A stretch of DNA of 64,000 bases from Candidatus Binatia bacterium (GTDB lineage: Bacteria > Desulfobacterota > Binatia > HRBIN30). Under the pieces are notes generated by a model, which made no database searches, was not told the DNA's origin, and saw nothing but the letters and a program-made list of their open reading frames with translations. The translations under genes and the position numbers were made by a program. Within the stretch, counting starts at the first letter, position 1; each line of letters starts with the position of its first letter. Of the stretch, positions 34,791 through 61,620 are shown piece by piece. The stretch is from NCBI GenBank assembly GCA_044450645.1, contig JBIOJG010000015.1, forward strand, positions 39,512-103,511, in the 5' to 3' direction.

Positions 34791-36053
34791 TTACGGTCGT
34801 GTTGAACTCAGCGACCGCAAGTACTCCACCAGATCCCGCATGTCAGCGTCGTGAAAGCGGGGCCAGGGAATGCCGCGCTCACGAATCTTTATCTCCATCG
34901 CCGGCGCATGGTTCCACAGGGCCGAGGAAAGGGCCAACGGAGAAGACAGGGCAGGGGAGCGGGAGAGATCGGGGGCGAGCCGTTTCTCAGTGCCACGCGG
35001 GGTGTAGTGGCAGAGGATGCATCCCTTTTCGATAAAGACGTCGTGCCCCTTCACGGCATCACCGGGCGGGTCAAAGTACTGCAGGAAGAACAGGTAGGCC
35101 ATTAGGTCCGAGATCTCCTGGTCAGAGAACTGTGGCAACGAAATGCCGAGCGCCTGCATCGTGGCCCACATGTTTGGCTCGTGATTCCACAGCCGGCCGG
35201 CGACTTCTGTCACGCTGCGGTGGAGATCTGCCGTGGCGAGGTCTGGTCCAACGTGGCCGCCGGTTCCACCGACACTGTGGCACTTGATGCAGCCTTTCGC
35301 TTCGAAGACCTTCCTGCCCCTCGCCGGACTACCGGGAGCCATGTCTTTCTTTTCTGTACTCGTATCGCTCGAGGCGCTCCGAATGTAGGCAAAGATGTGC
35401 GCCAGGTCCCCGTCGGAAAACTCCGGGCGCGCGATGCCGCTCTCGCCCATTTTGAGAGCCATCGCCGGGCTGTGACTCCACATGGCAGCGGCCAAGAACA
35501 AGGGCGAGGAGTAGTGTTTGTACTTATCAAGCGACGGCCCCACCTGTTTGCCGGCACCACCGATGGCGTGGCACTTGGCACACCCCATTCCGGAAAACAG
35601 CAGCTCGCCCTTGCTTGGGTCACCCGGTCGGTCGAAGTAGTTCAAGAAGTAGAGAAAGGCCGCGAGATCCGCCATCTCCTCGGTACTGATCGTCAAGTGG
35701 GGGATGCGCCGCTCGCGCATCTTCTCGATCATCTCGGGCGAATGATTCCACAAAACTCCCGCCAGTTGCATGACACTCTGCCACACCCCGACTTTCCCCA
35801 AGTCGGGACCCAAGGTGCCGCCCTCGCCCCAAATCGAATGACACATCGGACAGCCCTTCTGCAGGAAGACTTGCCGACCCGCCAGGGGATCGGTGGGCAA
35901 CGCGTCGGTTTCCGTGTCGGCGCACCACGATCTCACGGGCGCTAGAAGCATCCCGCTCAGCAGCACTGCGAAGGCCCATCCCAACCATCGCCGTCTCGCC
36001 GTTGAACTATGGAGTGCCACGCTCACGCTGCCTCGCTCAAACCGGGAAAACAT
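34791..36053 (-). CDS. Tetra-domain c-type cytochrome (four tandem class-I monoheme cytochrome c domains)
   Basis: Four CxxCH sites (CPMCH, CAKCH, CIKCH, CILCH). Each follows a G…KGC and precedes G.GG..GPDL, so four repeated class-I domains. N-terminal signal-like region (RRRWLGWAFAVLLSGMLLAPV). ATG at 36053 chosen; 36122 is possible. Confidence 0.75.
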   Translation of the reverse strand: MFSRFERGSVSVALHSSTARRRWLGWAFAVLLSGMLLAPVRSWCADTETDALPTDPLAGRQVFLQKGCPMCHSIWGEGGTLGPDLGKVGVWQSVMQLAGVLWNHSPEMIEKMRERRIPHLTISTEEMADLAAFLYFLNYFDRPGDPSKGELLFSGMGCAKCHAIGGAGKQVGPSLDKYKHYSSPLFLAAAMWSHSPAMALKMGESGIARPEFSDGDLAHIFAYIRSASSDTSTEKKDMAPGSPARGRKVFEAKGCIKCHSVGGTGGHVGPDLATADLHRSVTEVAGRLWNHEPNMWATMQALGISLPQFSDQEISDLMAYLFFLQYFDPPGDAVKGHDVFIEKGCILCHYTPRGTEKRLAPDLSRSPALSSPLALSSALWNHAPAMEIKIRERGIPWPRFHDADMRDLVEYLRSLSSTRP

Positions 36054-36209
36054 CCTGATGCGCTCCACCGCCGCAGCGAATTCTTTCTCCCACCGCTCGC
36101 GGATGTCCCACACAGGCGCCATCGGAGAGAGTTTTCAACAATAGCACAGGCAGCAGGCTCTACGCAGGTCGGGTGGTCAAAGCCGCGGGAGAACGGGACC
36201 AGGGTGCGG

Positions 36210-37562
36210 TCAGGCGGCGTCCCGTGGATCGAGCACTATGCCGAGACGGAACGCTTTGTCGTACAAAGCACGGCGACTGATGCCGAGTCGCTTGGCGACT
36301 GCGGTTTTATTCCAGTTCATATCGACCAGTGTGCGCTGAATGAGTTCACGCTCCAAGTCTTCGAGCGTGGTCAGCTCCTGCGGCAAGCTACGATTCTCGG
36401 CCGGCTCGAGTGAGGGGAAATCCCGTCGCCGCAGCACCGGCCCCTCCAACATGATCATGGCCCGTTCGACGACGTTCTCGAGTTCCCTCACGTTTCCCGG
36501 CCACGAGTAGCTGCGCAGGAGTTCGAGCGCGTCAGGGGCGATGCTGGGAACGGGTTTCTTGACGTTGATGGCTTGGATCCGAACGAAATGGTCCAGCAGC
36601 AACGGAATATCCTCGCGGCGCTCGCGCAGCGGCGGCATGTGGATGTTCACCACACTGAGGCGGTAGTACAAGTCCTCGCGGAACGTACCGGCGGTAATCA
36701 TGCGGCTGAGGTCGCGGTTCGTTGAGGCGATGATCCGCACGTCAGCCTTGATGATGCGTTCGCCGCCGACGCGTTTGTATTCTTTCTCCTGGATCACGCG
36801 CAGCAGTTTCGCCTGAAAGGCGGAGCTGGTCTCAGCGACTTCGTCGAGAAACAGCGTGCCGCCGGCGGCCGTCTCGAATAGCCCTTTCTTGGTGATGATC
36901 GCACCGGTGAACGCGCCTTTCTCGTGTCCGAAGAACTCGCTCTCGATCAACGTCTCGGTGAGAGCGCTGCAATTGACGGCGAAAAAGCTGCGTTCCGCGC
37001 GTGGCCCGTGATAATGCAAGTAGCGCGCGACGAGTTCTTTACCCGTACCGCTCTCCCCGGTGATCAGCACGCGGCAATCTGAATCATGCAGCTTTTCTAG
37101 CGTTTCGATGATGGCGCGGATTGGCGGCGACTGGCCGACGATCGGCCGCAGCGGAAGGGCGCCGAGTTGACGCCGCAGGGACGCATTCTCCGCAACCAAA
37201 CGGCGGTAGTCGAGCGCCTTGCTCACCTTGAACGCGAGTTCGTCGGGAGGGAAGGGCTTGGCGAGAAAATCGGCGGCGCCTTTCTTCACCGCCTCCACCG
37301 CGGCTTCGATGCTGGCGAAGCCGGTCACCATGATCACCACCGAGCCCGGCCGTTCCACGTTGATGCGCTCGAGCAGGGTCATGCCCGAGACATCGGGAAG
37401 TTTGAGGTCCAGGAGGATCACGTCGGCGGGTTCCTTCGCGAGCGCGGCGAGCGCTTCGGCACCGGTGGAGCAGGTGCGCACCGCATAGCCCGCCTGCGAG
37501 AGAACTTGCTCCATGTTGAGCGCCATGGAGAGTTCGTCGTCGACGACCAAGACGGTGTTCAT
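36210..37562 (-). CDS. Sigma-54-dependent response regulator (NtrC family: REC, AAA+, Fis-type HTH)
   Basis: REC (VLVVDDE … [10 protein letters not shown]). AAA+ Walker A ([10 protein letters not shown]). GAFTGA motif ([11 protein letters not shown]). Walker B LFLDEV. C-terminal HTH ([15 protein letters not shown]). Confidence 0.9.
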
Positions 37563-38881
37563 GCAGCCTCCTCACGTGCCAGGGGGCTGGCGTCGACCGG
37601 AAGACCGACCGTGAAAGTCGAGCCGCTTCCAGCTGCGCTGTCAACGCGCATCGTGCCGCCGAGCCGGCGGACGATGGTCAGCGAGAGCGAAAGACCGAGG
37701 CCGACGCCATCGGCGCCGTTCTTGGTGGTGAAAAAGGGGCTGAAGACGTCATCCAAGTGCTCACGCGGAATGCCGTGTCCATTGTCGCGTACCCGCACCT
37801 CCACCGTCTCCGGCTCCGCCCCGAGGCCGGTTTCGACGACCACCTCTCCGCCGTCTTCCACGGCGTCGAGGGCGTTGCACAACAGGTTGACGACTACCTG
37901 CCGCAACGCGCCCTCCTGCCCGTGTACCCGTAAGCCCGGCGTCAGGCGTTGCTCAATGTGGACGTGCCGCTGAGTTGCTCGGTTCTCGAACAGCAGGATG
38001 ACGCCGTGGGTCACCTTTGCAATGTCGACACTTTGTGGCGTCCCGTCCTGCTGGGGCGAAAGCGCCAGCAAGCTGCGGATAACTCCGCCGATGCGAAATG
38101 CAGACTCCGCGATGGTGGCGAGATCCTGCAGATAGCGTTGTGACAGGCCGTCGTGCTCCGCCTGCCGCCGCATCACCTCTGCCTTGCCGACGATGATCGC
38201 GGCGGGATTGTTGATGTGATGGGCCACGTCGGCAGCGAGACGGCCGACGGACAGGTGCCGGTACGTCTGCTCGAGGATCTGATTGCGGTGCTGCAGTTGG
38301 AGATTGACCTCGAACAGGCGGTGGCGATTGGTGCGCAACTGGCGGGAAACCAGGGCCAGCGAGTGCGCAATAAAGAACGCAAATCCCAACCGCAGCATCA
38401 GTTCCTCCGGTGCGCATCGCTGCGCCGAGGGAAGCCAGAGATACAGGGTCGTGTACAACCCGGCAAAGCCAGTGGCGGCGGCGATGCCCACCGTCGCGCC
38501 GAAGTAGAACGCGTGCAGTGCGACGAGCACGTAGAACGCGAGATACACGCCGGACATCGGCTCCGCTGACCACAGACAGATGAGGAAGAGGAACACGAGA
38601 TCCGCAGGGAGTACCGCCAAATAGGCGCGGGCACGGACCTGCGGGCGACGCCACACCTGGAGATACAGCGTCAGTGAGTACGCGACGAACGCTGCGGTGA
38701 GAACAAAGCCCTTGAGCGTTACGCCTGGTGCGGCGAATCTCCATAACCACACGGCTGCTGCCCCAGCGGATCCCACGCGCAACGCGAGAAAATACCGGTC
38801 CGCCTGATCAAACGCGGACGCCGATACCTGGCTGTCCGCGCTAGGCGAGAGTTGGGAGAACCACACGGAAAACCGATCCAT
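37559..38881 (-). CDS. Membrane sensor histidine kinase (partner of the NtrC-like regulator)
   Basis: About six TM helices. H-box AADVAHHINNPAA. HATPase N/G boxes (LLCNALDAV … DNGHGIP … GVGLGLSLSLTIVRRLGG). Stop overlaps the NtrC-like ATG (ATGA). ATG at 38881 chosen. Confidence 0.8.
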   Translation of the reverse strand: MDRFSVWFSQLSPSADSQVSASAFDQADRYFLALRVGSAGAAAVWLWRFAAPGVTLKGFVLTAAFVAYSLTLYLQVWRRPQVRARAYLAVLPADLVFLFLICLWSAEPMSGVYLAFYVLVALHAFYFGATVGIAAATGFAGLYTTLYLWLPSAQRCAPEELMLRLGFAFFIAHSLALVSRQLRTNRHRLFEVNLQLQHRNQILEQTYRHLSVGRLAADVAHHINNPAAIIVGKAEVMRRQAEHDGLSQRYLQDLATIAESAFRIGGVIRSLLALSPQQDGTPQSVDIAKVTHGVILLFENRATQRHVHIEQRLTPGLRVHGQEGALRQVVVNLLCNALDAVEDGGEVVVETGLGAEPETVEVRVRDNGHGIPREHLDDVFSPFFTTKNGADGVGLGLSLSLTIVRRLGGTMRVDSAAGSGSTFTVGLPVDASPLAREEAA

Positions 38882-40232
38882 GGCCAACTTTACTGCTGAC
38901 CTCAATGCTGCCCCCGTGAGCCTTGATGATCCCGTAGCTGACCGAGAGGCCCAGCCCCGAGCCGTCGCCGCTCTTTTTCGTGGAGAAGAACGGGTCAAAG
39001 ACGCGCCCGATGGTCTCCGGACGGATCCCGGTGCCCGAGTCAATCACCTCCACGTGGATGCAACCGTTGTTCGGCCAGGTACGCAACCGAATTGTCCCAC
39101 CCTCCGGCATCGCATCTTTCGCATTCTGCAACAGGTTGAGGAACACTTGCTTCAGTTGGTTGGCGTCAGCACGTACGAGCGGGAGCGCGTCGTAATGCTC
39201 GGGGACGATCGTGACATTCACGCGTGCGAACGACGGCCCGACAAAGCGCACGGTTTCGCGAAGAACCTGGTTCACATCGGTTGCCGCCAATGTCGTCTCG
39301 GACTTCCGCGCAAAAAGCAGCAGGCCACGCACAACCTCGGCGATGCGGCCGATCTCACGGCCCATGACGTCGAAGTCCTGGCGGCAGAGTTGCGGGCAGC
39401 TACGCTCGTCCGCCATCGCCTGCAACTCCTGGGCCTTTCCCATCATGATGCCGAGGGGATTGTTGATCTCGTGCGCGATTGCGGCAGCCATCTCACCAAC
39501 GACGCTGAGTTTCTCCGCTTGGATAAGCTGTGCTTCAACCTCACGATTGCGTGTATGCAGTCCCATCTCGGTACGGCGTGCACGGAGAAAGATGTGTGCC
39601 AAGAGAACGAAGAGCACGGCGCCTACTCCGAAGGATATGAGCCACAGCATCCGCCGGGCAGTGTCGAGGTTGCGGAAGAAGGTTACGGGGTTCTTGTGGA
39701 TCTCGAAAACCGCGTACACCTTGCCGTCGGATGACGCTGTCGGGACGTAAACCTGCAGCATGCGGCGACCGTCAGAGCCCTCACCACCGCCGGCGCGCAA
39801 CGCCTTGGGTGTTGCCACCTCTACCCCCGGCTGTCCCTTGAGCGCGGCGGCCAGCTGAGGGTTGCTGTGTTCGTCCTCTCGCATCCATTGTGCATCGTCG
39901 GACCAGACCGCCGTTCCGTGCTCATCGTAAACCTTGACGTGGAGAATTTCGGGAATGCTGGTGAGATGCTGCGTGAGGTGGACGAAGGCCCAGACCTTGT
40001 TATTGCTGGCAGCGAAGCGGAACTGTTCTGGAGTCAAATCCAGGTTCGTCATTGCCCGCACCGCCTCCGTCGTAACCTGGGCTTCACGGTCGAAGAGGTT
40101 GCGCGTCAGCAGGCGGTCTACCGCACCACCGAGGACGGCGATCGCGAGCCCACTGCACAGCAGCATGGCCGCGAGAAATCGCTGGAAAGGGTCCAGCCGG
40201 ATCTTGGTTCGCACTGTCCTGTCCGATCGCAT
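38841..40232 (-). CDS. Sensor histidine kinase with periplasmic sensor domain (second kinase in the block)
   Basis: TM, ~170-aa periplasmic region, TM. H-box AAAIAHEINNPLG. N/G boxes (LLQNAKDAM … DSGTGIR … GSGLGLSVSYGIIKAHGG). ATG at 40232 (MRSDRTV…). Confidence 0.8.
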   Translation of the reverse strand: MRSDRTVRTKIRLDPFQRFLAAMLLCSGLAIAVLGGAVDRLLTRNLFDREAQVTTEAVRAMTNLDLTPEQFRFAASNNKVWAFVHLTQHLTSIPEILHVKVYDEHGTAVWSDDAQWMREDEHSNPQLAAALKGQPGVEVATPKALRAGGGEGSDGRRMLQVYVPTASSDGKVYAVFEIHKNPVTFFRNLDTARRMLWLISFGVGAVLFVLLAHIFLRARRTEMGLHTRNREVEAQLIQAEKLSVVGEMAAAIAHEINNPLGIMMGKAQELQAMADERSCPQLCRQDFDVMGREIGRIAEVVRGLLLFARKSETTLAATDVNQVLRETVRFVGPSFARVNVTIVPEHYDALPLVRADANQLKQVFLNLLQNAKDAMPEGGTIRLRTWPNNGCIHVEVIDSGTGIRPETIGRVFDPFFSTKKSGDGSGLGLSVSYGIIKAHGGSIEVSSKVGHGSVFRVVLPTLA

Positions 40233-40429
40233 GCCTGGTGGCGAAAGGCAAGCGCCGTACTCCGTCCAGGAAATAGGCTGCGCGGGAAGAACGGCCCCAG
40301 ACCGCTTGCAGATCCCCGCTGTGCATTTATTGCGCGGTGTGCAGAAGCTGCGCATTGCGATTTCGGTTGACCTGTGTCGGCGTGGGCTGTCAGCCAATCA
40401 GAAACTGCGGTGGCCGTATGACGACAAGC

Positions 40430-40443
40430 GGCACATCTCTTGC
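40430..40443 (+). promoter_or_regulatory. Candidate sigma-54 (-24/-12) promoter upstream of the NHL/cytochrome cluster
   Basis: cGGCACatctcTTGCg has GG at 40430–40431 and GC at 40442–40443, exactly GG-N10-GC. It matches the TGGCAC-N5-TTGC consensus except at the first T. It lies ~100 nt upstream of the 40546 start, immediately downstream of the NtrC-type activator genes. Confidence 0.5.
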
Positions 40444-40545
40444 GCAGTCACGTGGCCGGAATGGAATCCGTAGGTCCGGACAGCGGCCGACGCATCATGC
40501 GCCGCAGGGACCCATGGGGGGGCGAGAACAAGAGGAGATCGCGTC

Positions 40546-41757
40546 ATGCGAGAAGAATGCATCGTGACCAGGTACACGTCTCATGATCTCTGGCGTGGCG
40601 CCCGAGCGGCCCTGCTCGGCATCGTAGCCCTCGGCCTGTGCGGCTGCTTCCCGGGCGTCAAGCCCAATGCGTCAGACAAACTCATAGAGCTGATGTGGCC
40701 TGAGCCTCCACTCAAGACGCGCATCAAGTTCGTCGGCAATCTGACTGGAGAGCATGAGCTGGCCACCGGCTTCAACTGGAAGAAGGACCTCACCGAATTT
40801 CTCGCCGGCACCCCGACCACGGAGACGGAGCTGGCGAACCCGATGGGCATTGTCGTCTCCGCGGATGCACAGCGGGTGTACGTGACCGATCTTCCCCAGC
40901 AGCGCGTGTTCGTCTTCGACCTGGCCAACAAGAGCGTGAAAGCCTGGCCCGCAGAGCAGACCAAGGTGGCTGGTCCACTGGGGATCGCGCTCGATGCGGA
41001 CGAGAACGTGTACGTCGTCGACTCGACCGAGAAGAAGGTCGTCGTGCTCAACCGAGACGGCAAGCCCGTACGTACGTTTACGCACCCAAGCTTCATCCGC
41101 ATTACCGGCATTGCGGTCGATTCGAAGCGGGGACGCATCTACGTGTCCGACACCTCGCATCAGAAGTCGCCCGAGCACAAAGTCCGGGTCTTCGACCTGC
41201 AGGGGCAGTACGTCAAAGAGTTGGGCAAGGGGAAGGGTTTCGAAGAGGGGTATCTGCTCTTCCCGACCTATTTGACTGTGGATGACGCAGGGCTCGTCTA
41301 CGTTGCGGACTCGATGAATGCTCGCGTGCAGGCGTTCGATCCCGATTCGGGAGCGGTGGTGAGAACCTATGGGCAGCGTGGCACCGCCTACGGCGAGTTC
41401 GAACGGCCCAAAGGGCTCGCTCTCGATACCTTTGGCAATCTGTACGTCGCCGACTCAGGCTGGGCCAACGTCCAGATCTTCAACAGGAAAGGGCAGGTCC
41501 TGCTCTACTTCGCCGGTCGTGGCCGCTATCCCGGGCTACTCAACAACCCGGCCGGCATGGCCATCGACAAGAACAACCGTATCTACGTCGCCGACACCCA
41601 GAACTTCCGGTTGAGTGTTTATCAACTCGTGAACACGACCGCTGATGACAGTTTTGAGACCGCTGATCAGACGCCGCAGGGCAGCGCGCCCGGGCCGGTG
41701 AAGGCGTCGCGGGACAAGCAAGAAGCAATGGTACCAGGGACGGTTCGCAGCAACTAG
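40546..41757 (+). CDS. NHL-repeat beta-propeller lipoprotein (paralog 1)
   Basis: Lipobox LGLCGC. Six NHL repeats (YVTDLPQQRVFVFD, YVVDSTEKKVVVLN, YVSDTSHQ…VRVFD, YVADSMNARVQAFD, YVADSGWANVQIFN, YVADTQNFRLSVYQ). Confidence 0.85.
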   Translation: MREECIVTRYTSHDLWRGARAALLGIVALGLCGCFPGVKPNASDKLIELMWPEPPLKTRIKFVGNLTGEHELATGFNWKKDLTEFLAGTPTTETELANPMGIVVSADAQRVYVTDLPQQRVFVFDLANKSVKAWPAEQTKVAGPLGIALDADENVYVVDSTEKKVVVLNRDGKPVRTFTHPSFIRITGIAVDSKRGRIYVSDTSHQKSPEHKVRVFDLQGQYVKELGKGKGFEEGYLLFPTYLTVDDAGLVYVADSMNARVQAFDPDSGAVVRTYGQRGTAYGEFERPKGLALDTFGNLYVADSGWANVQIFNRKGQVLLYFAGRGRYPGLLNNPAGMAIDKNNRIYVADTQNFRLSVYQLVNTTADDSFETADQTPQGSAPGPVKASRDKQEAMVPGTVRSN

Positions 41758-41889
41758 GGCGCACACCGACTACCAGGGAGGCGTTCGGCCGAGGGAGGGT
41801 ACCGTATGACCTAAAGCACTGGAGGGGATGGCAATTGGACGTATCTAAGTCACAAAGTCACTAAACGAAAATTATGGGGGTTAACTTCT

Positions 41890-42693
41890 ATGAAGATGAA
41901 GATGTTGTTGTGGATGGCAGCTGCAGTATTACTGCTTAGCCCGCCCGTCCTCTGGGCCGCGCCAGGTGATCCCGGCACGGGTCTGGCGACAACCAATCAT
42001 GACTTCACCGACGCGGCGAATTACACGACCAGCACGCCTGTGGGTCTCTGTACGTTCTGCCACACGCCCCACAAGGCGCAGCACACTGCGCTGTTGTGGA
42101 ACCATAGCGATACGTCGAACACCTTTTCGTGGACCGACAACACGAAGACCGCAGCTGGCACGAGTCTACCGACGTTCACCAAGACCTGGAACGGCCCGAC
42201 GCCGAAGTGCCTCTCCTGCCATGACGGTAGCGTAGCGGTCGGCGATGTTGCCTGGTTCGATGAAAAAGCCCAGCTCATCACTACCACTAGCGTCACGCCT
42301 GGTATCCTCGATGCCAGCGGCAAAATCATCGATACATCGCATCAGGTGGGCGTCGGTGGCAGCATGAACGGCAACCACCCCGTGGTGGTTCCATATCCGG
42401 GCGTTGGCTCGAAGCACTATGCCGGCGGGAACAGCGGCACCAGCATCGTCACCGCGGAGTGGCAGGGTGACCCGACCGCCCTCGGTGTCGTGCTCTATAA
42501 GGCCAGTGACAACACCCTGGCGGCCAGCATCAACCGTGTGACCAACTCGCCTGTTGGCGCAGACAACCTCGGCGTCGAGTGCGCCTCGTGTCATGATCCG
42601 CACAACAAGCTCACCGTCGACGCGAAATTCCTACGCGGCATGATGACGGGGAACGACACCAATTACCTCTGCCTGAAGTGTCACATCAAGTAG
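41890..42693 (+). CDS. Secreted tetraheme c-type cytochrome
   Basis: Signal peptide MKMKMLLWMAAAVLLLSPPVLWA. Four CxxCH sites (CTFCHTPH, CLSCHDG, CASCHDPH, CLKCH). The N-terminal module is homologous to the start of the 12-heme protein at 47211. Confidence 0.85.
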   Translation: MKMKMLLWMAAAVLLLSPPVLWAAPGDPGTGLATTNHDFTDAANYTTSTPVGLCTFCHTPHKAQHTALLWNHSDTSNTFSWTDNTKTAAGTSLPTFTKTWNGPTPKCLSCHDGSVAVGDVAWFDEKAQLITTTSVTPGILDASGKIIDTSHQVGVGGSMNGNHPVVVPYPGVGSKHYAGGNSGTSIVTAEWQGDPTALGVVLYKASDNTLAASINRVTNSPVGADNLGVECASCHDPHNKLTVDAKFLRGMMTGNDTNYLCLKCHIK

Positions 42694-43081
42694 CCAGAGA
42701 GAGGATCTCGGACGGCATCGCAACCGATTGCGGCGATGATTGGACGGCCTGAGTAGCAAAGCACGCGGCGCGTACGCCGAGTGTAGCGCAGTCTAGGCCG
42801 TCCTTCGTCGCTCCCGGTTGTCCAGAGAAGGATGTTACTGTTCGATCGACATGCCTGCCGTACGGCGCCGCGCGCTCCGCCCGGAGTGATTCCCTTGCTT
42901 TTCTGTTGCCCGCGTGGTTGTTCTTTCCATCTACTTCAGAGCCGGCCCGTTGGAGCAGAGGGACCGACAAAATGGCGGGAGACAACCGCTTCGCGTTCTC
43001 GCGTGTGTATGTGCACGCACGGAACGCGCCTGCCGCGCCGTAACCCGTCCGGGTCGTGACAACCCTTTTCCTTGAGCAGTC

Positions 43082-43735
43082 ATGGTGTCCGCCGCGAGGC
43101 ACATGGGTACTGCCGTATTTTCCGCAACGATCCTGTTTTCCATTGCGGCCGGCGGTTGCGACCCTGCGATCCGCTACGAAGTGCTCAGCCGTGTGTTCGA
43201 CAACGTCCCGCCTCCCGGGGCGACACCGCCGCCGCGCCGCGCTAAACGGGTACGTCGCCAGCTGCCGGAGAAGGTTGCCAAGGCAGAAGGCACACCGGTC
43301 TCCACGCCGACGCCCGGCCCCCAAGGGCCGCCAATTGAGGCGGTAACCGAGTGGGACAAGGCGGTAGAGATGTTGCCGAAGGACGCGGCCGACGCACCCG
43401 ACTGGATGACGGCACTGTCGCAGGGAGTGATCGCGCCACGTTCGTCGCTGGATCCGAAGGAAGACACGCCCCCAGAACCGCTGCCGCTCGATGTCGAACT
43501 GGAGCCGTCCGGGAACCCCGATATGAAGGTCATCTTTCCGCACGCGGCCCACACGCAATGGTTGCAGTGCCCCAACTGCCATCCCGACATCTTCCAGATG
43601 CAGAAGGGGGCTGACCGAATCGCGATGGGGGACATTTTCGCCGGGCAGTTCTGCGGCAAGTGCCACGGGAAAATGGCGTTCGATGTAGCAACATCATGCC
43701 CGCGCTGCCACGTGCAGATGGGAGGAGGCGGATGA
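43082..43735 (+). CDS. Triheme cytochrome c7/c3-type lipoprotein
   Basis: Lipobox-like AAGGC. Pro-rich linker, then a ~75-aa c7-type domain with three CxxCH (CPNCH, CGKCH, CPRCH) and distal His residues (FPHAAH). Confidence 0.8.
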   Translation: MVSAARHMGTAVFSATILFSIAAGGCDPAIRYEVLSRVFDNVPPPGATPPPRRAKRVRRQLPEKVAKAEGTPVSTPTPGPQGPPIEAVTEWDKAVEMLPKDAADAPDWMTALSQGVIAPRSSLDPKEDTPPEPLPLDVELEPSGNPDMKVIFPHAAHTQWLQCPNCHPDIFQMQKGADRIAMGDIFAGQFCGKCHGKMAFDVATSCPRCHVQMGGGG

Positions 43736-44121
43736 GAGGCGAAACAGCGCGTTGGCATACGTCCCTTTCCCACGGGGAAAGTGGACCCTCGATCGGACTC
43801 ACTGCGGGTATCATCGCCGCGCTCTGCGTCCTCTCTCTCACCGCCGCCTACGCGGTGCCCGGCGACATCGTCTTTCCGCGCCAGGATACGCAAATCACAG
43901 AGGGCATTCCCAGCGCCGTTTTCCCGCACTGGTTCCATCGCATCCGCTATCGCTGTTTCGTGTGCCACCCCGATGTCTTTCCGATGGAAGTGACGAACGA
44001 GGGAATCACGATGGATGCCATCAACGCGGGAAAGGCCTGCGGAGCCTGCCACAATGGTCAGACCGCGTGGGCACCCTCGTTCGAAACCTGTACCCGGTGC
44101 CATGTGCCCCCGCCGGAATGA
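43732..44121 (+). CDS. Triheme cytochrome c7/c3-type protein (paralog)
   Basis: Signal peptide then a c7-type domain with CFVCH, CGACH, CTRCH and FPHWFH. ATG 43732 overlaps the upstream stop (ATGA). Confidence 0.75.
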   Translation: MRGETARWHTSLSHGESGPSIGLTAGIIAALCVLSLTAAYAVPGDIVFPRQDTQITEGIPSAVFPHWFHRIRYRCFVCHPDVFPMEVTNEGITMDAINAGKACGACHNGQTAWAPSFETCTRCHVPPPE

Positions 44122-46183
44122 ATCCGCCACCCTCTTTCCGCGATGCATCGCCGCGCTCATTGCCTCAATCTTCGTGCTGTGCTGGGCCGCGCCAGCGGTC
44201 CGAGCAGAGGATCAGCCCGGCAATCCGCTCAGCTCTCCCGTCAGGTTCGTCCGCATGCCGAGCCTCCGCTCGACCTTCAGTTTGCTTCCGCATTTCCGAA
44301 AGTGGGAAGCCGATCTGCTGTTCGGCTACGAGTGGGACCGGCAGGATGCCTCCGTGGCGAACGAACCAAGCAGTCACTTCGAGCGCATGACGTACACCGA
44401 AGAACTGCGGCTTGGGAGTAAGGGCTACTTTTACGACCCGCGCTTGCTCAGCATAGGACTGAGCGGCACTTTCGGGCTCTTCCAGGAGCAGGCCTCCGTG
44501 TCGGGAGAGCCGAGCAACAGCAACGGTACGCTGCTGGGCTATGATGCGAGCGCCGTGCTGTTTCCAGAAAAACCGTATTCCCTCACCGCCTTTGGCAATC
44601 GCACCGAGGATATCGTGACGCGGGAATTTGCCGGCACGACGAAAGTGTTGTTGGAGAACTACGATTCGTCTCTGCTGCTCCGCGACATGCCGCTGGATTC
44701 GGTCTTCGGCCTCCGGCACGAACGGGTGCGCGAAAATCTCGACTCCGGCCCCAACTCTGCGCGCCGGGAGGAGGTGCGGGATGTCGCCTCCTATCACGGC
44801 ACGCGGGTGGGAGAGGTGAGCGATCTGGACCTGAATTACGAGTTCGACGATGTGGCGGACAAGGTCCTCCCGACGTTGGACTTCCAGACCCATGACGGTG
44901 GGGTCACCTACCACTATTTCTTCGGCCCGTATCTCGAAAAGAACTTCTACTTGCGCGCCCGCATCTTCGACCGAGAAGGGCGGTTTTCAACGCTCGTGGG
45001 CCAGACGAGCGAGTCCCTGCGCATCGATCACACGGAGACCTTTTCCAGCAACTACGATTACAGTTTGCTGTACAGCAGCGTGAGCGGTGCAGGCAAAAGC
45101 CTCACTCACGCCGGATCGGCCGGCATCCAGCACCAGCTCTTCGGCAGTCTGAGGACGGACCTGCAGGCGCTCGGGAATTACTCCGACTTCGAGAACGGGC
45201 AGGCGTTCGGCTACGGCGGAACGCTGGGCGTCACCTACACCAAGCGCCTCCCCTTCGAAGGTCGGTTCACAGCGGGCGGCCGCGGCGCTTATCGCATCGA
45301 CGATCAGACGCTGCCGAGCGGCACGCTGCCGGTTTTCCAGGAGCGGCATGCGGTTCAGGATTTCCAACCGATCTTTCTCACCAATCCACGCGTCCAGCTG
45401 GATACGATCGTGGTCACCGACGAGGCGGGTAAAGAAGTGTTCAAAGAGGGCTTCGATTACACGGTGACGCTAGTCGGCGATCTCGCTGAATTGTTGATCC
45501 AGCCCGGGGGCGACCTGCACACGCGAGGTGTGACCGGCATTCTCATCGATTACCGCTTTGCGACCGCCCGCAAGCTCGAATTCGCCACGTCATCGAGAGG
45601 CTTCAACCTGGGGATCGACTATGACTCGTTCTCGGTCTATTTCCAGCGCCAGCAGACGGATGAATCGCTCCTGAGTGGTGACAATATCAATGCCCAGTTC
45701 CTTGACGACATCACCGATCAGACCGCGGGCGCGCAGGTGCGCTGGTCCGGCCCGCAAATCCAGGCCTCGGGCCTCGGCGAGTACCGCACGTACGATTCGA
45801 GACGCGTGGCGTTCACGACACCGCATGCGCTGCAGTCACTTTCGTGGCTCTCTTCGCGCACCTTGACATGCAACGTGACGATGAGCGAGAGTTTCTTTCA
45901 TTTTTCCAGACCGCAGAGCCGTGACACGCAAACCCTCCTGGCTCGCCTGACGACCACCTGGCGGCCAGCGCGGCGGCTCTTCATCGATGCGTTCGCGAGC
46001 TACCTGCGGCAGGACGACACCGTCGCCCCGGACGAGCGTCTTTATGACACGGGGTTGCGTGCGCAATTCGAATACGGCAGGTTGCGGCTGATCCCGACGA
46101 TTGCGTTCGCGCGCCGCGAAGTCGGTACGGCCAAGACCGACGAGGTGCGCGCCACCCTCACCCTCATCAGGAAGCTCTTCTGA
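44102..46183 (+). CDS. Large outer-membrane beta-barrel protein (porin-like component of a porin–cytochrome conduit)
   Basis: Signal peptide (…VLCWAAPAVRA|ED). ~690 aa of alternating amphipathic beta-strand pattern rich in Y/F/G/T. C-terminal aromatic residue (…LIRKLF). No cofactor motifs. Confidence 0.65.
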   Translation: MCPRRNESATLFPRCIAALIASIFVLCWAAPAVRAEDQPGNPLSSPVRFVRMPSLRSTFSLLPHFRKWEADLLFGYEWDRQDASVANEPSSHFERMTYTEELRLGSKGYFYDPRLLSIGLSGTFGLFQEQASVSGEPSNSNGTLLGYDASAVLFPEKPYSLTAFGNRTEDIVTREFAGTTKVLLENYDSSLLLRDMPLDSVFGLRHERVRENLDSGPNSARREEVRDVASYHGTRVGEVSDLDLNYEFDDVADKVLPTLDFQTHDGGVTYHYFFGPYLEKNFYLRARIFDREGRFSTLVGQTSESLRIDHTETFSSNYDYSLLYSSVSGAGKSLTHAGSAGIQHQLFGSLRTDLQALGNYSDFENGQAFGYGGTLGVTYTKRLPFEGRFTAGGRGAYRIDDQTLPSGTLPVFQERHAVQDFQPIFLTNPRVQLDTIVVTDEAGKEVFKEGFDYTVTLVGDLAELLIQPGGDLHTRGVTGILIDYRFATARKLEFATSSRGFNLGIDYDSFSVYFQRQQTDESLLSGDNINAQFLDDITDQTAGAQVRWSGPQIQASGLGEYRTYDSRRVAFTTPHALQSLSWLSSRTLTCNVTMSESFFHFSRPQSRDTQTLLARLTTTWRPARRLFIDAFASYLRQDDTVAPDERLYDTGLRAQFEYGRLRLIPTIAFARREVGTAKTDEVRATLTLIRKLF

Positions 46184-47214
46184 TGCGAGGCGCTCTGCTG
46201 AGTCTGTTCATGGCTGCGCTTCTCGTCGCCGGGTGCGCGCAACCGAATCCGCGTGAAGCCGCCGAAGCCCCGCCGACCCCTGCCGCCAAGCTGGTCTGGC
46301 CACCACCGCCGGACACCGCCAAGATCGAGTACGTCACGAGCATCACCGGAACCGGTGATCTGCATGTTGCCAAATCGTTCTTTCGCCGGCTGGGCGAGCT
46401 GATCCTCGGCCCCACGGAAGAATGGCTGGTGCGGCCAACCGGCGTGGCTGCGCGGGACGATTTTCTCGCCATTGCCGACGCCGGGACTCCTGCCCTGTTT
46501 CTGATCGATCGGGCCGCACGGGCCTTCCACAAAATCACGCAAGCGGGCGAAGAGGACCTGGTATCTCCGGTGGGAGTAGCAATCGCAGGAGAGAACGTGG
46601 TCTATTTAAGCGATTCGTACCTCCGTCGCCTCTACCGCCTCGACCGCGAAGGCCGGCTACTGCATGCATGGGGAGGCGATGACCTCGCGCGGCCAACCAG
46701 CTTGGCATACGACACCCAGCGGCGGCGCCTCTATGTCGCTGATGCCGGAGCCCACCGCGTCCTGGCATACGATCCGGATGGAACACTCCTCTTCGCCTTC
46801 GGCGAGCGCGGCCTGGCCGACGCTGAATTCAACTGGCCGAGCCACCTGTGCGTCGACCGTGACGGGCTGATCTACGTGGTCGACTTTTTCAACTTTCGCG
46901 TGCAGATCTTCGACCCCGACGGTCACTTCCTCTTCACGTTCGGTCACCAAGGGGACGGCTCCGGCGACTTCTCGCGGCCGAAGGGCATCGGTGTGGACAC
47001 TCGCGGGCACATCTACGTTGTCGACGCGCTCTTCGACGCCGTCCAGATCTTCGATTACCGTGGCCGGTTTCTGCTTGGCTTTGGCAAGCAAGGCCGCGAC
47101 GCGGGCGAGTTCTGGCTGCCGAACGGCCTGGCAACGGACCGGGATCGGATCTACGTGGCGGACGCCTACAATCAACGGGTCCAGGTGTTTCGGTTCATCG
47201 GCGCAGAGGAATGA
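46183..47214 (+). CDS. NHL-repeat beta-propeller lipoprotein (paralog 2)
   Basis: Lipobox LLVAGC. NHL repeats (YVADAGAHRVLAYD, YVVDFFNFRVQIFD, YVVDALFDAVQIFD, YVADAYNQRVQVFR). N-terminal segment KLVWPPPPDTAKIEYV parallels LIELMWPEPPLKTRIKFV of the 40546 protein. ATG overlaps the upstream stop (ATGA). Confidence 0.85.
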   Translation: MRGALLSLFMAALLVAGCAQPNPREAAEAPPTPAAKLVWPPPPDTAKIEYVTSITGTGDLHVAKSFFRRLGELILGPTEEWLVRPTGVAARDDFLAIADAGTPALFLIDRAARAFHKITQAGEEDLVSPVGVAIAGENVVYLSDSYLRRLYRLDREGRLLHAWGGDDLARPTSLAYDTQRRRLYVADAGAHRVLAYDPDGTLLFAFGERGLADAEFNWPSHLCVDRDGLIYVVDFFNFRVQIFDPDGHFLFTFGHQGDGSGDFSRPKGIGVDTRGHIYVVDALFDAVQIFDYRGRFLLGFGKQGRDAGEFWLPNGLATDRDRIYVADAYNQRVQVFRFIGAEE

Positions 47215-49064
47215 CCCGTTTCACGCGCATCGCCGTTTCCGTTTGCCTGCCCGCACTGTCGTGCCTGGTTCTGGCGCGGCCCGCCTGGGGTGGCATCGAA
47301 CACACGATCCACAACTTCAGCGTCAGCGGACCCCAGGCACGGGGCGCACCGCCGCGCGCGCCGGCGGTGAGCGGCACGGCTCCGACCGTGGGGATCTGCG
47401 TGTTCTGTCACACGCCGCACAACGCCAATCCGACCGCCGGACTGTGGAACCACCGTCTTCCGGCCGTCAGCTACAAGTTGTACGAAAGCTCCACGCTGCA
47501 AGCACAGATCAATCAGCCGACCGGATCGTCGCGACTGTGCCTGTCCTGCCATGACGGCACCCTCGCTCTCGGTGACCTACGCGTGCATCCACGCGGCGCA
47601 CATCTGTCGGTGGCCACGTTATCCGGTCGTGCCTCGCTGGGCACCGATTTGTCGGACGACCACCCGGTGTCGTTCCTCTACGATATCGCCCTGGCAAGCC
47701 GCCAAGGCGCGCTCGCCAATCCCGGCGCCTTGCCACCCGAGGTCCGGCTCGACAAAGCGGGCCAGATGCAGTGCACTTCTTGCCACGATCCGCACCAGGA
47801 CAAGTTCGATCATTTCTTGGTGATGGACAACCGCGGCGCGCGTCTGTGCACCGCATGCCACCATATCAAGGGCTGGTCGGACTCTTCGCATGCGACCTCG
47901 CCAGCAACGCAGACGCGGACGGGAGCCAATCCGTGGCCGCACACACCTTACGTCAGCGTCGCCGACAACGGCTGCGAGAACTGCCACCGGCAGCATGCCG
48001 CGGGACATCCCGAATGGCTTCTCCTCAACCGCACGGTGAGCGAAGACTGCTTCACCTGCCACGATGGCAGCGTGGCTGCTCGGGACGTCCGCCGATCGTT
48101 CAACTCGCTGAGCTCGCATCCGGTCGAGGTCACCGAGGCACTCCATCAGCCCAATGAAGATCCGCTGTTCATGAAGCGGCACGTGGCCTGTGGGGACTGT
48201 CACGACCCGCACTCGGTGCGCGCGGGTACGCGTCCCAGTGCCGGCGCACCACCGCGCGGTGCGCTCGGTACCATGGAGGTCACTGGTGCGGTGGCAGGCG
48301 TCGACGCCGCCGGCGGGCGCGTACGCCAGGCCCGGACCGAGTACGAAGTGTGTTACAAGTGCCATGGCCTGCAAGAGGAAGCGACCTTCCTGGTTGCGCC
48401 CCGCTTCATGCTCGTCCGTAACGACAACGTGACCAATGTACGCCTGCAATTCAGCACGAACAACGTGTCGTTCCACCCCGTCGAGGCCGTCGGCCGGAAT
48501 CCCACCATCAGCGGGTTCGAGGCGGGTTATACCCCCTCGACCATTTTGTCATGCACCGATTGCCACAACAGCGACGAGAGCGACGCCGCGGATACTCGGG
48601 CCGTACGCGGGCCGCACGGGTCGGCATACGAGCCCATCCTCGTCCGCGAGTACCAGGTCGGTGATCCGAGCCAGGAATCGTATCAGAGCTACGCCCTCTG
48701 CTATCGCTGCCACAACCGTACCGCACTGCTCTCCGACACCGGGGGCTTTCCGCACCGGTTGCACGTGGTCGACCAGCAGGCCTCGTGCGCGGTGTGCCAC
48801 GACGCCCATGGCTCACGGCAGAATCTTTTTCTGGTGAATTTCCTCGCGCGTGGGAAAACCGGCAATGCCGTCGTCACGCCGTCAGCAAGTACGAAGCAAC
48901 TCGAATTCCAGTCGTTCGGGCGCGGCCGGGGCCAATGCTCCCTGACCTGTCATGGGAGTGAGCACAACGCCAGACAGTACCCCGCGCCGACGACGCCGTC
49001 ACAGAAGGCCGTCCCTTTGCCGGCGCGACAACGCAATCCGATGAGTTTTGGTGTCGAACGGTGA
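47211..49064 (+). CDS. Secreted dodecaheme c-type cytochrome (11 CxxCH plus 1 CxxxCH)
   Basis: Signal peptide. CVFCHTPH, CLSCH, CTSCH, CTACH, CENCH, CFTCH, CGDCH, CYKCH, CTDCH, CYRCH, CAVCH, plus CSLTCH (CX3CH). ATG overlaps the stop of the NHL gene (ATGA). Confidence 0.85.
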   Translation: MTRFTRIAVSVCLPALSCLVLARPAWGGIEHTIHNFSVSGPQARGAPPRAPAVSGTAPTVGICVFCHTPHNANPTAGLWNHRLPAVSYKLYESSTLQAQINQPTGSSRLCLSCHDGTLALGDLRVHPRGAHLSVATLSGRASLGTDLSDDHPVSFLYDIALASRQGALANPGALPPEVRLDKAGQMQCTSCHDPHQDKFDHFLVMDNRGARLCTACHHIKGWSDSSHATSPATQTRTGANPWPHTPYVSVADNGCENCHRQHAAGHPEWLLLNRTVSEDCFTCHDGSVAARDVRRSFNSLSSHPVEVTEALHQPNEDPLFMKRHVACGDCHDPHSVRAGTRPSAGAPPRGALGTMEVTGAVAGVDAAGGRVRQARTEYEVCYKCHGLQEEATFLVAPRFMLVRNDNVTNVRLQFSTNNVSFHPVEAVGRNPTISGFEAGYTPSTILSCTDCHNSDESDAADTRAVRGPHGSAYEPILVREYQVGDPSQESYQSYALCYRCHNRTALLSDTGGFPHRLHVVDQQASCAVCHDAHGSRQNLFLVNFLARGKTGNAVVTPSASTKQLEFQSFGRGRGQCSLTCHGSEHNARQYPAPTTPSQKAVPLPARQRNPMSFGVER

Positions 49065-49134
49065 GGCCGAGCGGGAGGCGGCGGACATGCTCTGATGTCC
49101 GCCGCCCTTTGCTGCTCACATGATTTGACGAATA

Positions 49135-49437
49135 CTACTTCTTCAAACCCACCAAATACGACACCACGGCGCCCAGATCTTCGTCACTGAGGGTCGCCTT
49201 CGGCATTTTGGAGTCCGCCTTCTTCGACTTCGGATCCTTGATGTACTCCTTCAAGTACGCCTCGCCCTTTGCCCCAGCGGCATCAAGTGCCCCACCGTTC
49301 TTTGCCATCGGTCCGCCTACCCCGCCGATGCTGTGGCACGTCTTGCACTTCTTCTCGTACACTCCGGCGCCGTCTGCTGCCCAGGCTACCTGAGAAAGAA
49401 TCGCGAGAGCGGCGATCCCGAACACAATCCGCTTCAT
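49135..49437 (-). CDS. Small secreted monoheme class-I cytochrome c
   Basis: Signal peptide MKRIVFGIAALAILSQVAWA. Single CKTCHSIGG. C-terminal Met (SKMPKA) as likely sixth ligand. 100 aa. Confidence 0.8.
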   Translation of the reverse strand: MKRIVFGIAALAILSQVAWAADGAGVYEKKCKTCHSIGGVGGPMAKNGGALDAAGAKGEAYLKEYIKDPKSKKADSKMPKATLSDEDLGAVVSYLVGLKK

Positions 49438-51888: not shown

Positions 51889-51939
51889 TATGCCCTTGTT
51901 TTTGTGCTCTTTTCTCTCGTCCTCTGCGAGAGGACGCGA

Positions 51940-53109: not shown

Positions 53110-53171
53110 GACGCCTCCTTTGTGGACAGACGTCGCTCTGGTGTCAAACGCGTGGGGGGAAAATGGCTGGC

Positions 53172-61607: not shown

Positions 61608-61620
61608 TGTGCGCGTGCGT

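What the first reader, a model, noticed from the sequence alone, without database searches (positions are those of the whole stretch)
40546..49437. Porin–cytochrome-like extracellular electron-transfer cluster built from duplicated NHL-lipoprotein + multiheme-cytochrome modules
A unidirectional gene string encodes, in order: an NHL-propeller lipoprotein, a tetraheme cytochrome, two overlapping triheme c7-type cytochromes, a 722-aa outer-membrane beta-barrel, a second paralogous NHL lipoprotein and a dodecaheme cytochrome. A convergent monoheme cytochrome c closes the cluster. Most junctions are ATGA overlaps (43732, 46183, 47211), consistent with one operon. The combination of periplasmic small cytochromes, a barrel and a large multiheme cytochrome is the logic of Mtr/Pcc-type conduits. 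The NHL lipoprotein partner that is itself duplicated with the cytochrome module is not part of the described Mtr or Pcc architectures.
Basis: partly seen in the sequence, partly recalled or inferred. Interest (0 to 1): 0.85.

Follow-up and report, generated by a model that had tools for sequence, protein, structure and literature searches.

The report
OmcE/Uet-type outer-membrane cytochrome gene cluster
This uncultured Binatia bacterium carries a gene set for moving electrons across its outer membrane, built from multi-haem cytochromes, a large membrane barrel and beta-propeller lipoproteins; the kind of cluster is already described (Geobacter omcE nanowire cluster, "Uet" cluster of iron- and cathode-oxidisers), so it is a new host lineage, not a new system.

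The parts
34791..36122 (-). Cytochrome with four class I (monohaem) c-type domains; probable periplasmic link to the respiratory chain
   Evidence: It has 4 CxxCH motifs and hits PF00034 at E 1e-33. A homologue lies next to the cluster in the Rokubacteria locus L006 (42% identity). Class I cytochrome c genes or domains lie inside the cluster in L004 and L009 and are fused to c7a in L001.
36210..37562 (-). Sigma-54-dependent response regulator (receiver + AAA+ + Fis HTH), divergent from the cluster
   Evidence: Pfam hits. The same regulator type is adjacent to the cluster in L004 (46% identity), L006 and L012.
37559..40397 (-). Two histidine kinases (maximal ORFs 37559-39043 and 38841-40397)
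   Evidence: Both carry HisKA and HATPase_c.
40429..40444 (+). Candidate -24/-12 sigma-54 promoter (cGGCACatctcTTGCg), about 100 bp upstream of NHL1
   Evidence: This is weak evidence. The number of pattern matches in the window is no higher than in shuffled sequence, and the motif is not clearly conserved in relatives.
40546..41757 (+). NHL1, a six-bladed NHL beta-propeller lipoprotein and partner of the tetrahaem cytochrome
   Evidence: PF01436 at E 1e-32. It is 31% identical (E 3e-45) to the NHL lipoprotein of the G. sulfurreducens omcE locus, including the N-terminal WPxxPxxxRI segment.
41890..42693 (+). OmcE-family tetrahaem cytochrome (candidate extracellular or filament subunit; UetA-like)
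   Evidence: It matches PDB 7TFS (OmcE filament) at E 5e-11 and 9YUQ at E 4e-10. The 4 CxxCH motifs and 4 distal His (H37, H61, H163, H238) are invariant across the alignment that includes OmcE.
43082..43735 (+). c7a, a trihaem c7-type cytochrome with a lipobox (AGGC-D) and a Pro/Ala-rich linker of about 110 residues
   Evidence: TIGR04257 at 69 bits against a cut-off of 40. N-terminal sequence.
43732..44121 (+). c7b, a soluble periplasmic trihaem c7-type cytochrome
   Evidence: TIGR04257 at 69.6 bits. It matches PDB 3OV0 (GSU1996) at E 7e-39, and the best stretch falls at chain residues 171-239.
44102..46183 (+). Outer-membrane beta-barrel of about 30 strands with a conserved ~60-residue insert (residues 418-478); no Pfam or NCBIfam family
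46183..47214 (+). NHL2, an NHL beta-propeller lipoprotein translationally coupled to the 12-haem cytochrome
   Evidence: PF01436 at E 3e-28. It is 34% identical (E 1e-46) to the Geobacter omcE-locus NHL protein. It overlaps the next gene by ATGA.
47211..49064 (+). 12-haem cytochrome (11 CxxCH + 1 Cx3CH; UetJ-like) whose first ~217 residues form an OmcE-like tetrahaem module
   Evidence: Residues 6-217 are 36% identical to OmcE (E 2e-26), and the match to 7TFS is E 5e-23. All 120 best homologues carry exactly 11 CxxCH + 1 Cx3CH. 28 His are invariant or nearly invariant.
49077..49106 (.). Hairpin with a 12-bp GC-rich stem between the convergent genes; candidate bidirectional terminator
   Evidence: -36 kcal/mol, z -5.0.
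49135..49437 (-). Monohaem class I cytochrome c with a signal peptide
   Evidence: PF13442 and PF00034. A monohaem cytochrome c also flanks the cluster in L004.

Best explanation
This is an OmcE/Uet-type module for moving electrons across the cell envelope.

**Shown**
- Two OmcE-family cytochromes are present: a stand-alone tetrahaem, and a 12-haem protein whose N-terminus is an OmcE module.
- Each is encoded directly after its own NHL beta-propeller lipoprotein.
- Two c7-type trihaems and a ~30-strand outer-membrane barrel lie between the two pairs.
- The barrel–NHL–12-haem triad is conserved across phyla.

**Inferred**
- The c7 trihaems relay electrons through the periplasm. One is lipid-anchored on a long flexible linker and one is soluble.
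- They connect the class I c cytochromes encoded on both flanks with the 12-haem cytochrome.
- The 12-haem cytochrome occupies or threads the barrel, as MtrA does in MtrB.
- The OmcE-like tetrahaem lies outside the cell, either as a surface cytochrome or polymerised into an OmcE-type filament.
- The NHL lipoproteins bind, hold or dock the OmcE-type modules during export and assembly.
- Expression is controlled by the adjacent sigma-54 two-component system.

The direction of electron flow cannot be read from the sequence. Three things fit coupling to a high-potential (aerobic or denitrifying) chain, and hence electron uptake, at least as well as metal reduction: the link to class I c cytochromes, the largely aerobic lifestyle reported for Binatia, and the presence of Uet clusters in iron- and cathode-oxidisers.
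For: **OmcE homology**
- Searches give the sequence matches.
- The alignment shows 4 CxxCH and 4 distal His invariant. These are the hallmarks named for OmcE homologues in bioRxiv 10.1101/2025.10.22.684050.

**Match to published parts lists**
- The omcE cluster parts list is met: two beta-propeller lipoproteins, an OmcE protein, a large barrel and further multihaem cytochromes.
- The NHL proteins are homologous to the NHL protein of the G. sulfurreducens omcE locus.
- The Uet parts list matches: a tetrahaem, c7 trihaems that best match GSU1996 domain C, a barrel, two NHL proteins, and an 11-CXXCH doubled-CXXCH 'cytochrome c3 family' protein counted as 11 or 12 motifs.

**Barrel**

**Synteny**
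- NHL–tetrahaem–c7–c7–barrel–NHL–12-haem occurs in L004, L005, L006 and L009.
- The triad occurs in L001, L002, L010, L011 and L012.
- These loci come from Binatia, Rokubacteria, Gammaproteobacteria, Planctomycetota, Acidobacteriota and Albitalea.

**Other support**
- NHL and OmcE-type genes overlap by 4-8 nt here and in L004 and L009.
- A c7 domain is fused to class I cytochrome c domains in L001.
- Sigma-54 regulators are adjacent in the window, L004, L006 and L012.
Against: - There is no experimental data for this organism or for any member of this exact architecture.
- The barrel shows no significant sequence similarity to the barrel of the Geobacter omcE locus (hhalign probability 11%; HMM scores 4-9 bits).
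- The Geobacter cluster's other multihaem cytochromes resemble the 12-haem protein only at the level of repeated CxxCH spacing.
- The Uet accessories are absent from the window: peptidyl-prolyl isomerase, cupredoxin, CcsAB, NrfG and BatABD.
- Orthology to the Tenderia proteins could not be tested because no sequences were available.
- The physiological role of OmcE filaments is itself disputed. [quoted passage not shown]
- The AlphaFold model of the 12-haem protein failed (pLDDT 48), so its shape and its fit in the barrel are unknown.
Confidence: 0.65

Rival explanations
1. This is a static porin–cytochrome conduit of the Mtr/Pcc type with no filament. The 12-haem cytochrome and/or the c7 proteins sit in the barrel. 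The tetrahaem is a monomeric surface cytochrome, and the NHL proteins are structural scaffolds.
For: - The barrel's best structural match is MtrB.
- The parts follow the periplasmic-cytochrome, barrel and large-cytochrome logic.
- Uet authors proposed the same 'cytochrome inserted in a barrel' model.
- Tetrahaem OmcE-like proteins are very common, and not all are expected to polymerise.
Against: - The defining Mtr/Pcc families are not matched.
- Both large surface candidates belong to the OmcE family, whose two solved members are filaments (7TFS and 9YUQ).
- The co-occurrence of a barrel and a beta-propeller lipoprotein is exactly the criterion used in the literature to pick nanowire-competent OmcE homologues.
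Confidence: 0.25
2. The barrel and the NHL lipoproteins are only a secretion and assembly machine for the OmcE-like cytochromes, analogous to an usher and chaperone. Electrons cross the outer membrane by another route.
For: - The omcE and omcS literature proposes that the barrel is a secretion pore or anchor and that beta-propeller proteins maintain filament morphology.
- Foldseek also retrieves ushers and LptD among the barrel's matches.
- Each NHL gene is translationally coupled to an OmcE-type gene.
Against: - The c7 trihaems are encoded immediately upstream of the barrel and overlap it. The 12-haem protein is conserved immediately after barrel–NHL in every informative locus. Both facts suggest that the electron path and the pore are one unit.
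- No ATPase or other energy source for secretion is encoded in the cluster.
Confidence: 0.08
3. This is an accessory cytochrome set of a periplasmic respiratory enzyme, such as a nitrite, hydroxylamine or other soluble-substrate oxidoreductase.
For: There are weak sub-threshold hits to NrfB/NrfH-like models. NnrU, a protein linked to denitrification, is encoded elsewhere in the window at 25370-26062.
Against: - No catalytic multihaem family reaches threshold (NrfA, HAO, octahaem families), and no CxxCK motif is present.
- The haem ligands look all bis-His, judged from the conserved His residues.
- A dedicated outer-membrane barrel and lipoproteins make no sense for a soluble periplasmic enzyme.
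- No catalytic subunit appears in any of the related loci.
Confidence: 0.02

Closest known systems
omcE cytochrome-nanowire gene cluster of Desulfuromonadia (G. sulfurreducens GSU0618 region; Desulfuromonas soudanensis). Structures 7TFS and 9YUQ; cluster described in bioRxiv 10.1101/2025.10.22.684050.
   Same: - It has an OmcE-family tetrahaem with 4 CxxCH and 4 conserved distal His.
- It has NHL beta-propeller lipoprotein(s) that are sequence-homologous to those here (31-34% identity).
- It has a ~700-aa outer-membrane barrel with no Pfam family, plus additional multihaem cytochromes.
- Glycosyltransferase, methyltransferase and exporter genes lie downstream in many Geobacter loci and also downstream here.
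   Different: - The barrels are not detectably similar in sequence.
- The Geobacter partner cytochromes (8 and 9 CxxCH) lack an OmcE module. Here a 12-haem protein begins with one.
- The c7 trihaems here lie inside the cluster, directly before the barrel.
- Class I c cytochromes and a sigma-54 two-component system flank the cluster here, instead of resB/ccsB and the pur genes.
- The host is an uncultured Binatia, a phylum not among the five listed for OmcE homologues.
- The downstream sugar genes are not conserved in the related loci examined.
Uet (undecahaem electron transfer) cluster uetABCDEFGHIJ of Ca. Tenderia electrophaga, also reported in Gallionella and Leptothrix (bioRxiv 10.1101/2022.05.06.490989; PMC10734462; PMC13386937).
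   Same: The parts list matches:
- a tetrahaem (UetA);
- c7-type trihaems that best match GSU1996 domain C (UetD/E/G);
- a large barrel (UetC, predicted 28 strands);
- two NHL proteins (UetH/I);
- an 11-CXXCH doubled-CXXCH 'cytochrome c3 family' protein counted as 11 or 12 motifs (UetJ).

It is also linked to aerobic, high-potential electron chains.
   Different: - The gene order differs.
- There is no peptidyl-prolyl isomerase (UetB), no cupredoxin (UetF) and no ccsAB/nrfG/batABD block here.
- There are two c7 genes here, not three; relatives L004, L005, L006 and L009 have three c7 domains.
- Sequence orthology was not tested, because no Uet sequences could be obtained with these tools.
MtrCAB / PioAB / Pcc (OmaB-OmbB-OmcB) porin–cytochrome conduits.
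   Different: - There is no family-level sequence match to MtrB/PioB, MtrA/DmsE or MtrC/OmcA.
- The model has about 30 strands, against 26 in MtrB.
- NHL lipoproteins and OmcE-type modules are absent from Mtr and Pcc.
Desulfovibrio ferrophilus IS5 clusters DFE_0448-0451 and DFE_0461-0465 (PMC9769857).
   Same: Multihaem cytochromes are co-encoded with NHL beta-propeller proteins and have been linked to outer-membrane electron exchange.
   Different: This comparison rests on the published description only. No sequences were compared, and no barrel is reported in the passage read.

Membership tests
omcE nanowire gene cluster | OmcE-family tetrahaem: four CxxCH motifs plus four conserved distal histidines, with sequence similarity to OmcE | tested here: met
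   phmmer against PDB 7TFS gives E 5e-11 for the tetrahaem and 5e-23 for the 12-haem N-terminus. BLASTP against G. sulfurreducens OmcE gives 27% and 36% identity. C54/C57/H58, C107/C110/H111, C231/C234/H235, C261/C264/H265 and H37, H61, H163, H238 are invariant.
omcE nanowire gene cluster | Beta-propeller lipoprotein(s) encoded with OmcE | tested here: met
   There are two NHL lipoproteins. Both are homologous to the NHL protein of the G. sulfurreducens omcE locus (E 3e-45 and 1e-46).
omcE nanowire gene cluster | Large outer-membrane beta-barrel encoded nearby | tested here: met
omcE nanowire gene cluster | Two further multihaem cytochromes homologous to those of Desulfuromonadia clusters | tested here: inconclusive
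   Further multihaem cytochromes exist (the 12-haem protein and two c7 proteins). Their similarity to the Geobacter 370-aa and 330-aa proteins is only weak and repeat-like (E 7e-10 and 3e-5).
omcE nanowire gene cluster | The tetrahaem polymerises into an extracellular filament | not testable with these tools
   This needs cryo-EM or biochemistry. No multimer modelling with haems was available.
Uet cluster (uetA-J) | Cytochrome with eleven CXXCH motifs (UetJ), doubled-CXXCH type | tested here: met
   11 CxxCH + 1 Cx3CH, PF09699 at E 7e-27. The same count is found in all 120 best homologues.
Uet cluster (uetA-J) | Tetrahaem (UetA), c7-type trihaems (UetD/E/G) and two NHL proteins (UetH/I) | tested here: met
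   The c7b best match is GSU1996 residues 171-239. There are two c7 genes here and three c7 domains in relatives.
Uet cluster (uetA-J) | Barrel UetC, predicted to have 28 strands | tested here: inconclusive
   DSSP on the model gives about 30 barrel strands plus an insert. Model confidence is moderate, and there is no UetC sequence to compare.
Uet cluster (uetA-J) | Peptidyl-prolyl isomerase UetB, cupredoxin UetF, and downstream ccsAB, nrfG and batABD | tested here: not met
   None of these families was found anywhere in the 64-kb window.
Uet cluster (uetA-J) | Orthology to Ca. Tenderia electrophaga ALP54622-ALP54629/ALP54908 and UetJ | not testable with these tools
   The Tenderia, Gallionella and Leptothrix sequences were not retrievable. 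The genome scan returned only 3 loci.
MtrCAB / PioAB / Pcc | MtrB/PioB-family barrel (TIGR03509) and MtrA/DmsE-family decahaem (TIGR03508) | tested here: not met
   The barrel has no NCBIfam or Pfam hit. TIGR03508 reaches 51 bits against a cut-off of 192 for the 12-haem protein.
MtrCAB / PioAB / Pcc | MtrC/OmcA-type surface decahaem (PF22113 domains) | tested here: not met
   PF22113 reaches 22 bits against a cut-off of 30 on the tetrahaem, and gives no hit at E<=0.01 on the 12-haem protein.

The most novel reading that the evidence does not exclude
The 12-haem 'UetJ-like' family is widespread: more than 7,500 relatives at E<=1e-3, all of the best 120 with 11 CxxCH + 1 Cx3CH. It may be the missing base or nucleator of OmcE-type filaments.

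- Its N-terminal ~217 residues form a complete OmcE module, closer to Geobacter OmcE (36% identity) than the stand-alone tetrahaem is (27%).
- That module is fused to an eight-haem extension, which could thread the co-conserved barrel.
- The stand-alone tetrahaem would then polymerise onto this module, wiring the filament to the periplasmic c7 relay.
- Each NHL lipoprotein would act as a dedicated chaperone or docking partner for one OmcE-type module.

This reading would also make the 'Uet' clusters of iron- and cathode-oxidisers and the Geobacter omcE nanowire cluster one ancient system. The two literatures do not currently cite each other.
Probability: 0.2. Interest if true: 0.7.

Novelty: new member of a known kind. 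Interest (0 to 1): 0.4.

Why it matters
- It places an OmcE/Uet-type extracellular electron-transfer module in Binatia. This is an uncultured soil and sediment lineage so far described as aerobic methylotrophs and alkane oxidisers, and no electron exchange with minerals has been reported for it in the papers read.
- The same architecture recurs in Rokubacteria, Acidobacteriota, Planctomycetota, Gammaproteobacteria and Burkholderiales. The module is therefore far more widespread than the five phyla listed for OmcE homologues.
- It gives a sequence-based bridge between two separately named systems, omcE and Uet.
- It offers a concrete, testable candidate for how OmcE-type filaments are anchored and fed with electrons. 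The nanowire literature states this as an open question.

Tried and rejected
- **AlphaFold2 of the 12-haem protein** with a 71-sequence alignment failed (pLDDT 48). No fold search was run on it.
- **afdb50 fold library** was unavailable.
- **Genome scan.** A 46-sequence barrel alignment was too diverse to use. The scan with the 10-sequence alignment returned only 3 loci and no Tenderia, Gallionella or Leptothrix.
- **Word-indexed search** found only 10 barrel homologues. The full HMM search found 2493 representative clusters, so the barrel family is not rare.
- **Cluster look-ups** yielded almost no organism names. One useful lead came out, Albitalea, fetched as L012.
- **Barrel comparison.** hhalign and hmmsearch of the barrel family against the Geobacter omcE-locus barrel showed no significant similarity.
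- **Sigma-54 promoter search.** One well-placed candidate was found, but matches in the window are no more frequent than in shuffled sequence, and the motif is not conserved in relatives. No sigma-70-like promoter was found.
- **Downstream glycosyltransferase genes** were considered as an omcE-type glycosylation island. Related loci L004, L006 and L009 do not have them, so the link was left open.
- **Rfam and tRNA scans** of the window found nothing.
- **Literature.** The OmcE structure paper PMC9357133 is not held. One search for osc genes was swamped by rice gene names.
- **A nitrite or hydroxylamine enzyme accessory set** was rejected, because no catalytic family or motif is present.
Full report
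**1. Observation**

The window comes from an uncultured Candidatus Binatia MAG. The barrel and the 12-haem protein are 100% identical to NCBI proteins of that name.

On the + strand between 40546 and 49064 lie seven genes:
- NHL1, an NHL-repeat lipoprotein (403 aa);
- a tetrahaem cytochrome (267 aa, 4 CxxCH, doubled-CXXCH domain);
- two c7-type trihaems, c7a (217 aa) and c7b (129 aa, from the ATG at 43732). Both score above the TIGR04257 cut-off;
- a protein with no Pfam or NCBIfam family. It is 722 aa from the first ATG, but more likely 693 aa from 44102, which gives a proper signal peptide. PGAP's 642-aa call has none;
- NHL2, a second NHL lipoprotein (343 aa);
- a 617-aa cytochrome with 11 CxxCH and one CSLTCH.

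A monohaem class I cytochrome c converges on the cluster at 49135-49437. A strong hairpin separates it from the 12-haem gene.

The two NHL proteins are paralogues (33% identity, E 6e-58). The tetrahaem aligns with the first four haems of the 12-haem protein (E 5e-19). c7a through the 12-haem gene overlap one another: ATGA, 20 nt, TGATG, ATGA. The first two genes are separated by gaps of 132 and 388 bp.

**2. What the parts are**

*The barrel.*
- AlphaFold2 on a 10-sequence alignment gives an all-beta model with mean pLDDT 76. It has about 30 long antiparallel strands and a ~60-residue insert at residues 418-478.
- Foldseek against the PDB returns only large outer-membrane barrels: LptD, TonB-dependent receptors and ushers.
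- The family is not rare. A profile search finds 2493 representative clusters.
- The most conserved columns of a 46-member alignment fall in and around the insert (E414, D452, Y484).
- If the strand count is right, the insert lies on the periplasmic side. This is an inference.

*The cytochromes.* This was the key result.
- The tetrahaem and residues 11-217 of the 12-haem protein match PDB 7TFS at E 5e-11 and 5e-23. 7TFS is the OmcE cytochrome filament of Geobacter sulfurreducens.
- Both also match 9YUQ, the Desulfuromonas soudanensis OmcE bundle.
- I retrieved G. sulfurreducens OmcE and its locus. OmcE is 36% identical to the 12-haem N-terminus and 27% identical to the tetrahaem.
- An alignment of OmcE proteins, tetrahaems and 12-haem N-termini keeps all four CxxCH motifs and four further histidines invariant. 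These are the features the literature names as conserved among OmcE homologues.
- c7b matches the Geobacter dodecahaem GSU1996 best over residues 171-239.

**3. Conservation**

Contexts of barrel and 12-haem homologues were fetched as L001-L006 and L009-L012.
- The order NHL–tetrahaem–(class I cytochrome c)–c7–c7–barrel–NHL–12-haem recurs in another Binatia MAG, a Rokubacteria MAG, a Gammaproteobacteria MAG and an unnamed metagenome contig.
- The triad barrel–NHL–12-haem is present in every informative locus. This includes Planctomycetota, Acidobacteriota and Albitalea (Burkholderiales).
- All 120 best homologues of the 12-haem protein have exactly 11 CxxCH + 1 Cx3CH.
- A sigma-54-dependent response regulator with histidine kinase(s) is adjacent here and in L004, L006 and L012.
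- Class I c cytochromes travel with the cluster. In L001 they are fused to the c7a homologue.
- NHL genes overlap the following OmcE-type gene in several loci. This points to 1:1 partnership, which is an inference.

**4. Comparison with what is known**

*omcE cluster.* A 2025 preprint describes the omcE cluster of Desulfuromonadia. [quoted passage not shown] They are often followed by glycosylation genes. The authors use the barrel and the propeller lipoprotein to pick nanowire-competent OmcE homologues.
- The G. sulfurreducens locus (L008) indeed has two multihaem cytochromes, an NHL protein, OmcE, a 752-aa protein without Pfam family and glycosyltransferases.
- Its NHL protein is clearly homologous to NHL1 and NHL2.
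- Its barrel is not detectably similar in sequence.
- Its other cytochromes are only loosely similar.

*Uet cluster.* The Uet cluster of Ca. Tenderia electrophaga lists a tetrahaem, a PPIase, a 28-strand barrel, three c7 trihaems, a cupredoxin, two NHL proteins and an 11-CXXCH cytochrome. It has also been found in Gallionella and Leptothrix.
- Apart from the PPIase, the cupredoxin and the downstream maturation genes, this is the parts list seen here.
- I could not obtain Uet sequences, so orthology is untested.

*Mtr/Pcc.* Family models are not matched.

*NHL partners.* NHL proteins next to multihaem cytochromes are also described in Desulfovibrio ferrophilus and Geoalkalibacter.

**5. Mechanism**

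The best-supported reading is an OmcE/Uet-type envelope-spanning electron path.
- Class I c cytochromes and c7 trihaems act in the periplasm.
- The 12-haem protein sits at or in the barrel.
- The OmcE-like tetrahaem is outside the cell, perhaps as a filament.
- NHL lipoproteins partner the OmcE-type modules.
- The sigma-54 two-component system controls expression.

Only homology, architecture and conservation are shown. Localisation, insertion in the barrel, polymerisation and direction of flow are inferred. Binatia are described as mostly aerobic, and Uet hosts are electron-uptake organisms, so inward flow is at least as plausible as metal reduction. The role of OmcE filaments is itself debated.

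**6. Novelty and score**

The kind of system is known. This is a new member in a lineage not listed for it.

One point may be new. The widespread 12-haem family begins with a complete OmcE module, which the Geobacter cluster cytochromes lack. The omcE preprint states that no tip or base candidate is encoded in omcE operons. The Uet and omcE papers do not mention each other.

Interest is 0.4: useful and testable, but not a new category.

Noticed in passing
window 15909-17732 (+) and 18293-21121 (-): Two large secreted proteins (607 and 942 aa) are made mostly of Thr-Pro linker repeats and carry dockerin-like EF-hand motifs ([33 protein letters not shown]). A 90-bp x 4 tandem repeat lies at 20474-20835. 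These genes account for the GC- and AT-skew spikes at 16-22 kb.
   Followed up: partly
window 49577-53289 (-): Three tandem paralogous genes (~380-450 aa) share a C-terminal '...GWFSDRSACYLAAGRPV..QDTGF' region. Only one has a weak Glyco_trans_1_2 hit; the others match no Pfam family.
   Followed up: no
window 53172-63990: A sugar-modification block lies downstream of the cluster: a PMT_2 (GT39-like) membrane protein, a methyltransferase, an ABC exporter and a GT2-family protein. It resembles the glycosylation island reported after Geobacter omcE clusters. It is absent from related loci L004, L006 and L009, so the link is uncertain.
   Followed up: partly
window 56114-56800 (-): An ORF has a SmaI-type restriction endonuclease domain (PF17411, E 2e-8). 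It lies next to a methyltransferase at 56965-57708.
   Followed up: no
window 44102-44255: The public annotation of the barrel (642 aa) starts at an internal Met and lacks a signal peptide. The start at 44102 gives a Sec signal peptide (…AAPAVRA|ED) and is covered by homologues P0003 and P0004.
   Followed up: yes
window 42694-43081; L001 4212-7349; L004 4353-7493: Relatives carry a ~1045-aa MFS/spermine-synthase-like + TPR protein between the tetrahaem and the c7 genes. The window has only a 388-bp non-coding gap there.
   Followed up: no
L001 7412-9589: In a related contig the c7a homologue is fused to four class I cytochrome c domains in one 725-aa protein. This gene fusion links the c7 relay to class I cytochromes.
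   Followed up: partly
L007 1-5300: A betaproteobacterial MAG has the tetrahaem–c7–c7–c7–barrel part of the cluster, but the reading frames are broken and the barrel match stops at residue 468. This is either assembly frameshifts or a decaying cluster.
   Followed up: partly
L002 12037-15786: In the most divergent relative, a 1249-aa protein is inserted between the barrel and NHL–12-haem. It has BrxC/PglY-N-like, cytochrome b (Ni_hydr_CYTB) and c7-like hits. ResB/CcsA genes flank that cluster.
   Followed up: no
window barrel residues 414-484 (about 45341-45553): The most conserved columns of the barrel family cluster in a ~60-residue insert between strands 18 and 19 (motif …G.DY.V…G.L..I.P…..I..GD…V.Y.F). 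By strand count it probably lies on the periplasmic side.
   Followed up: partly
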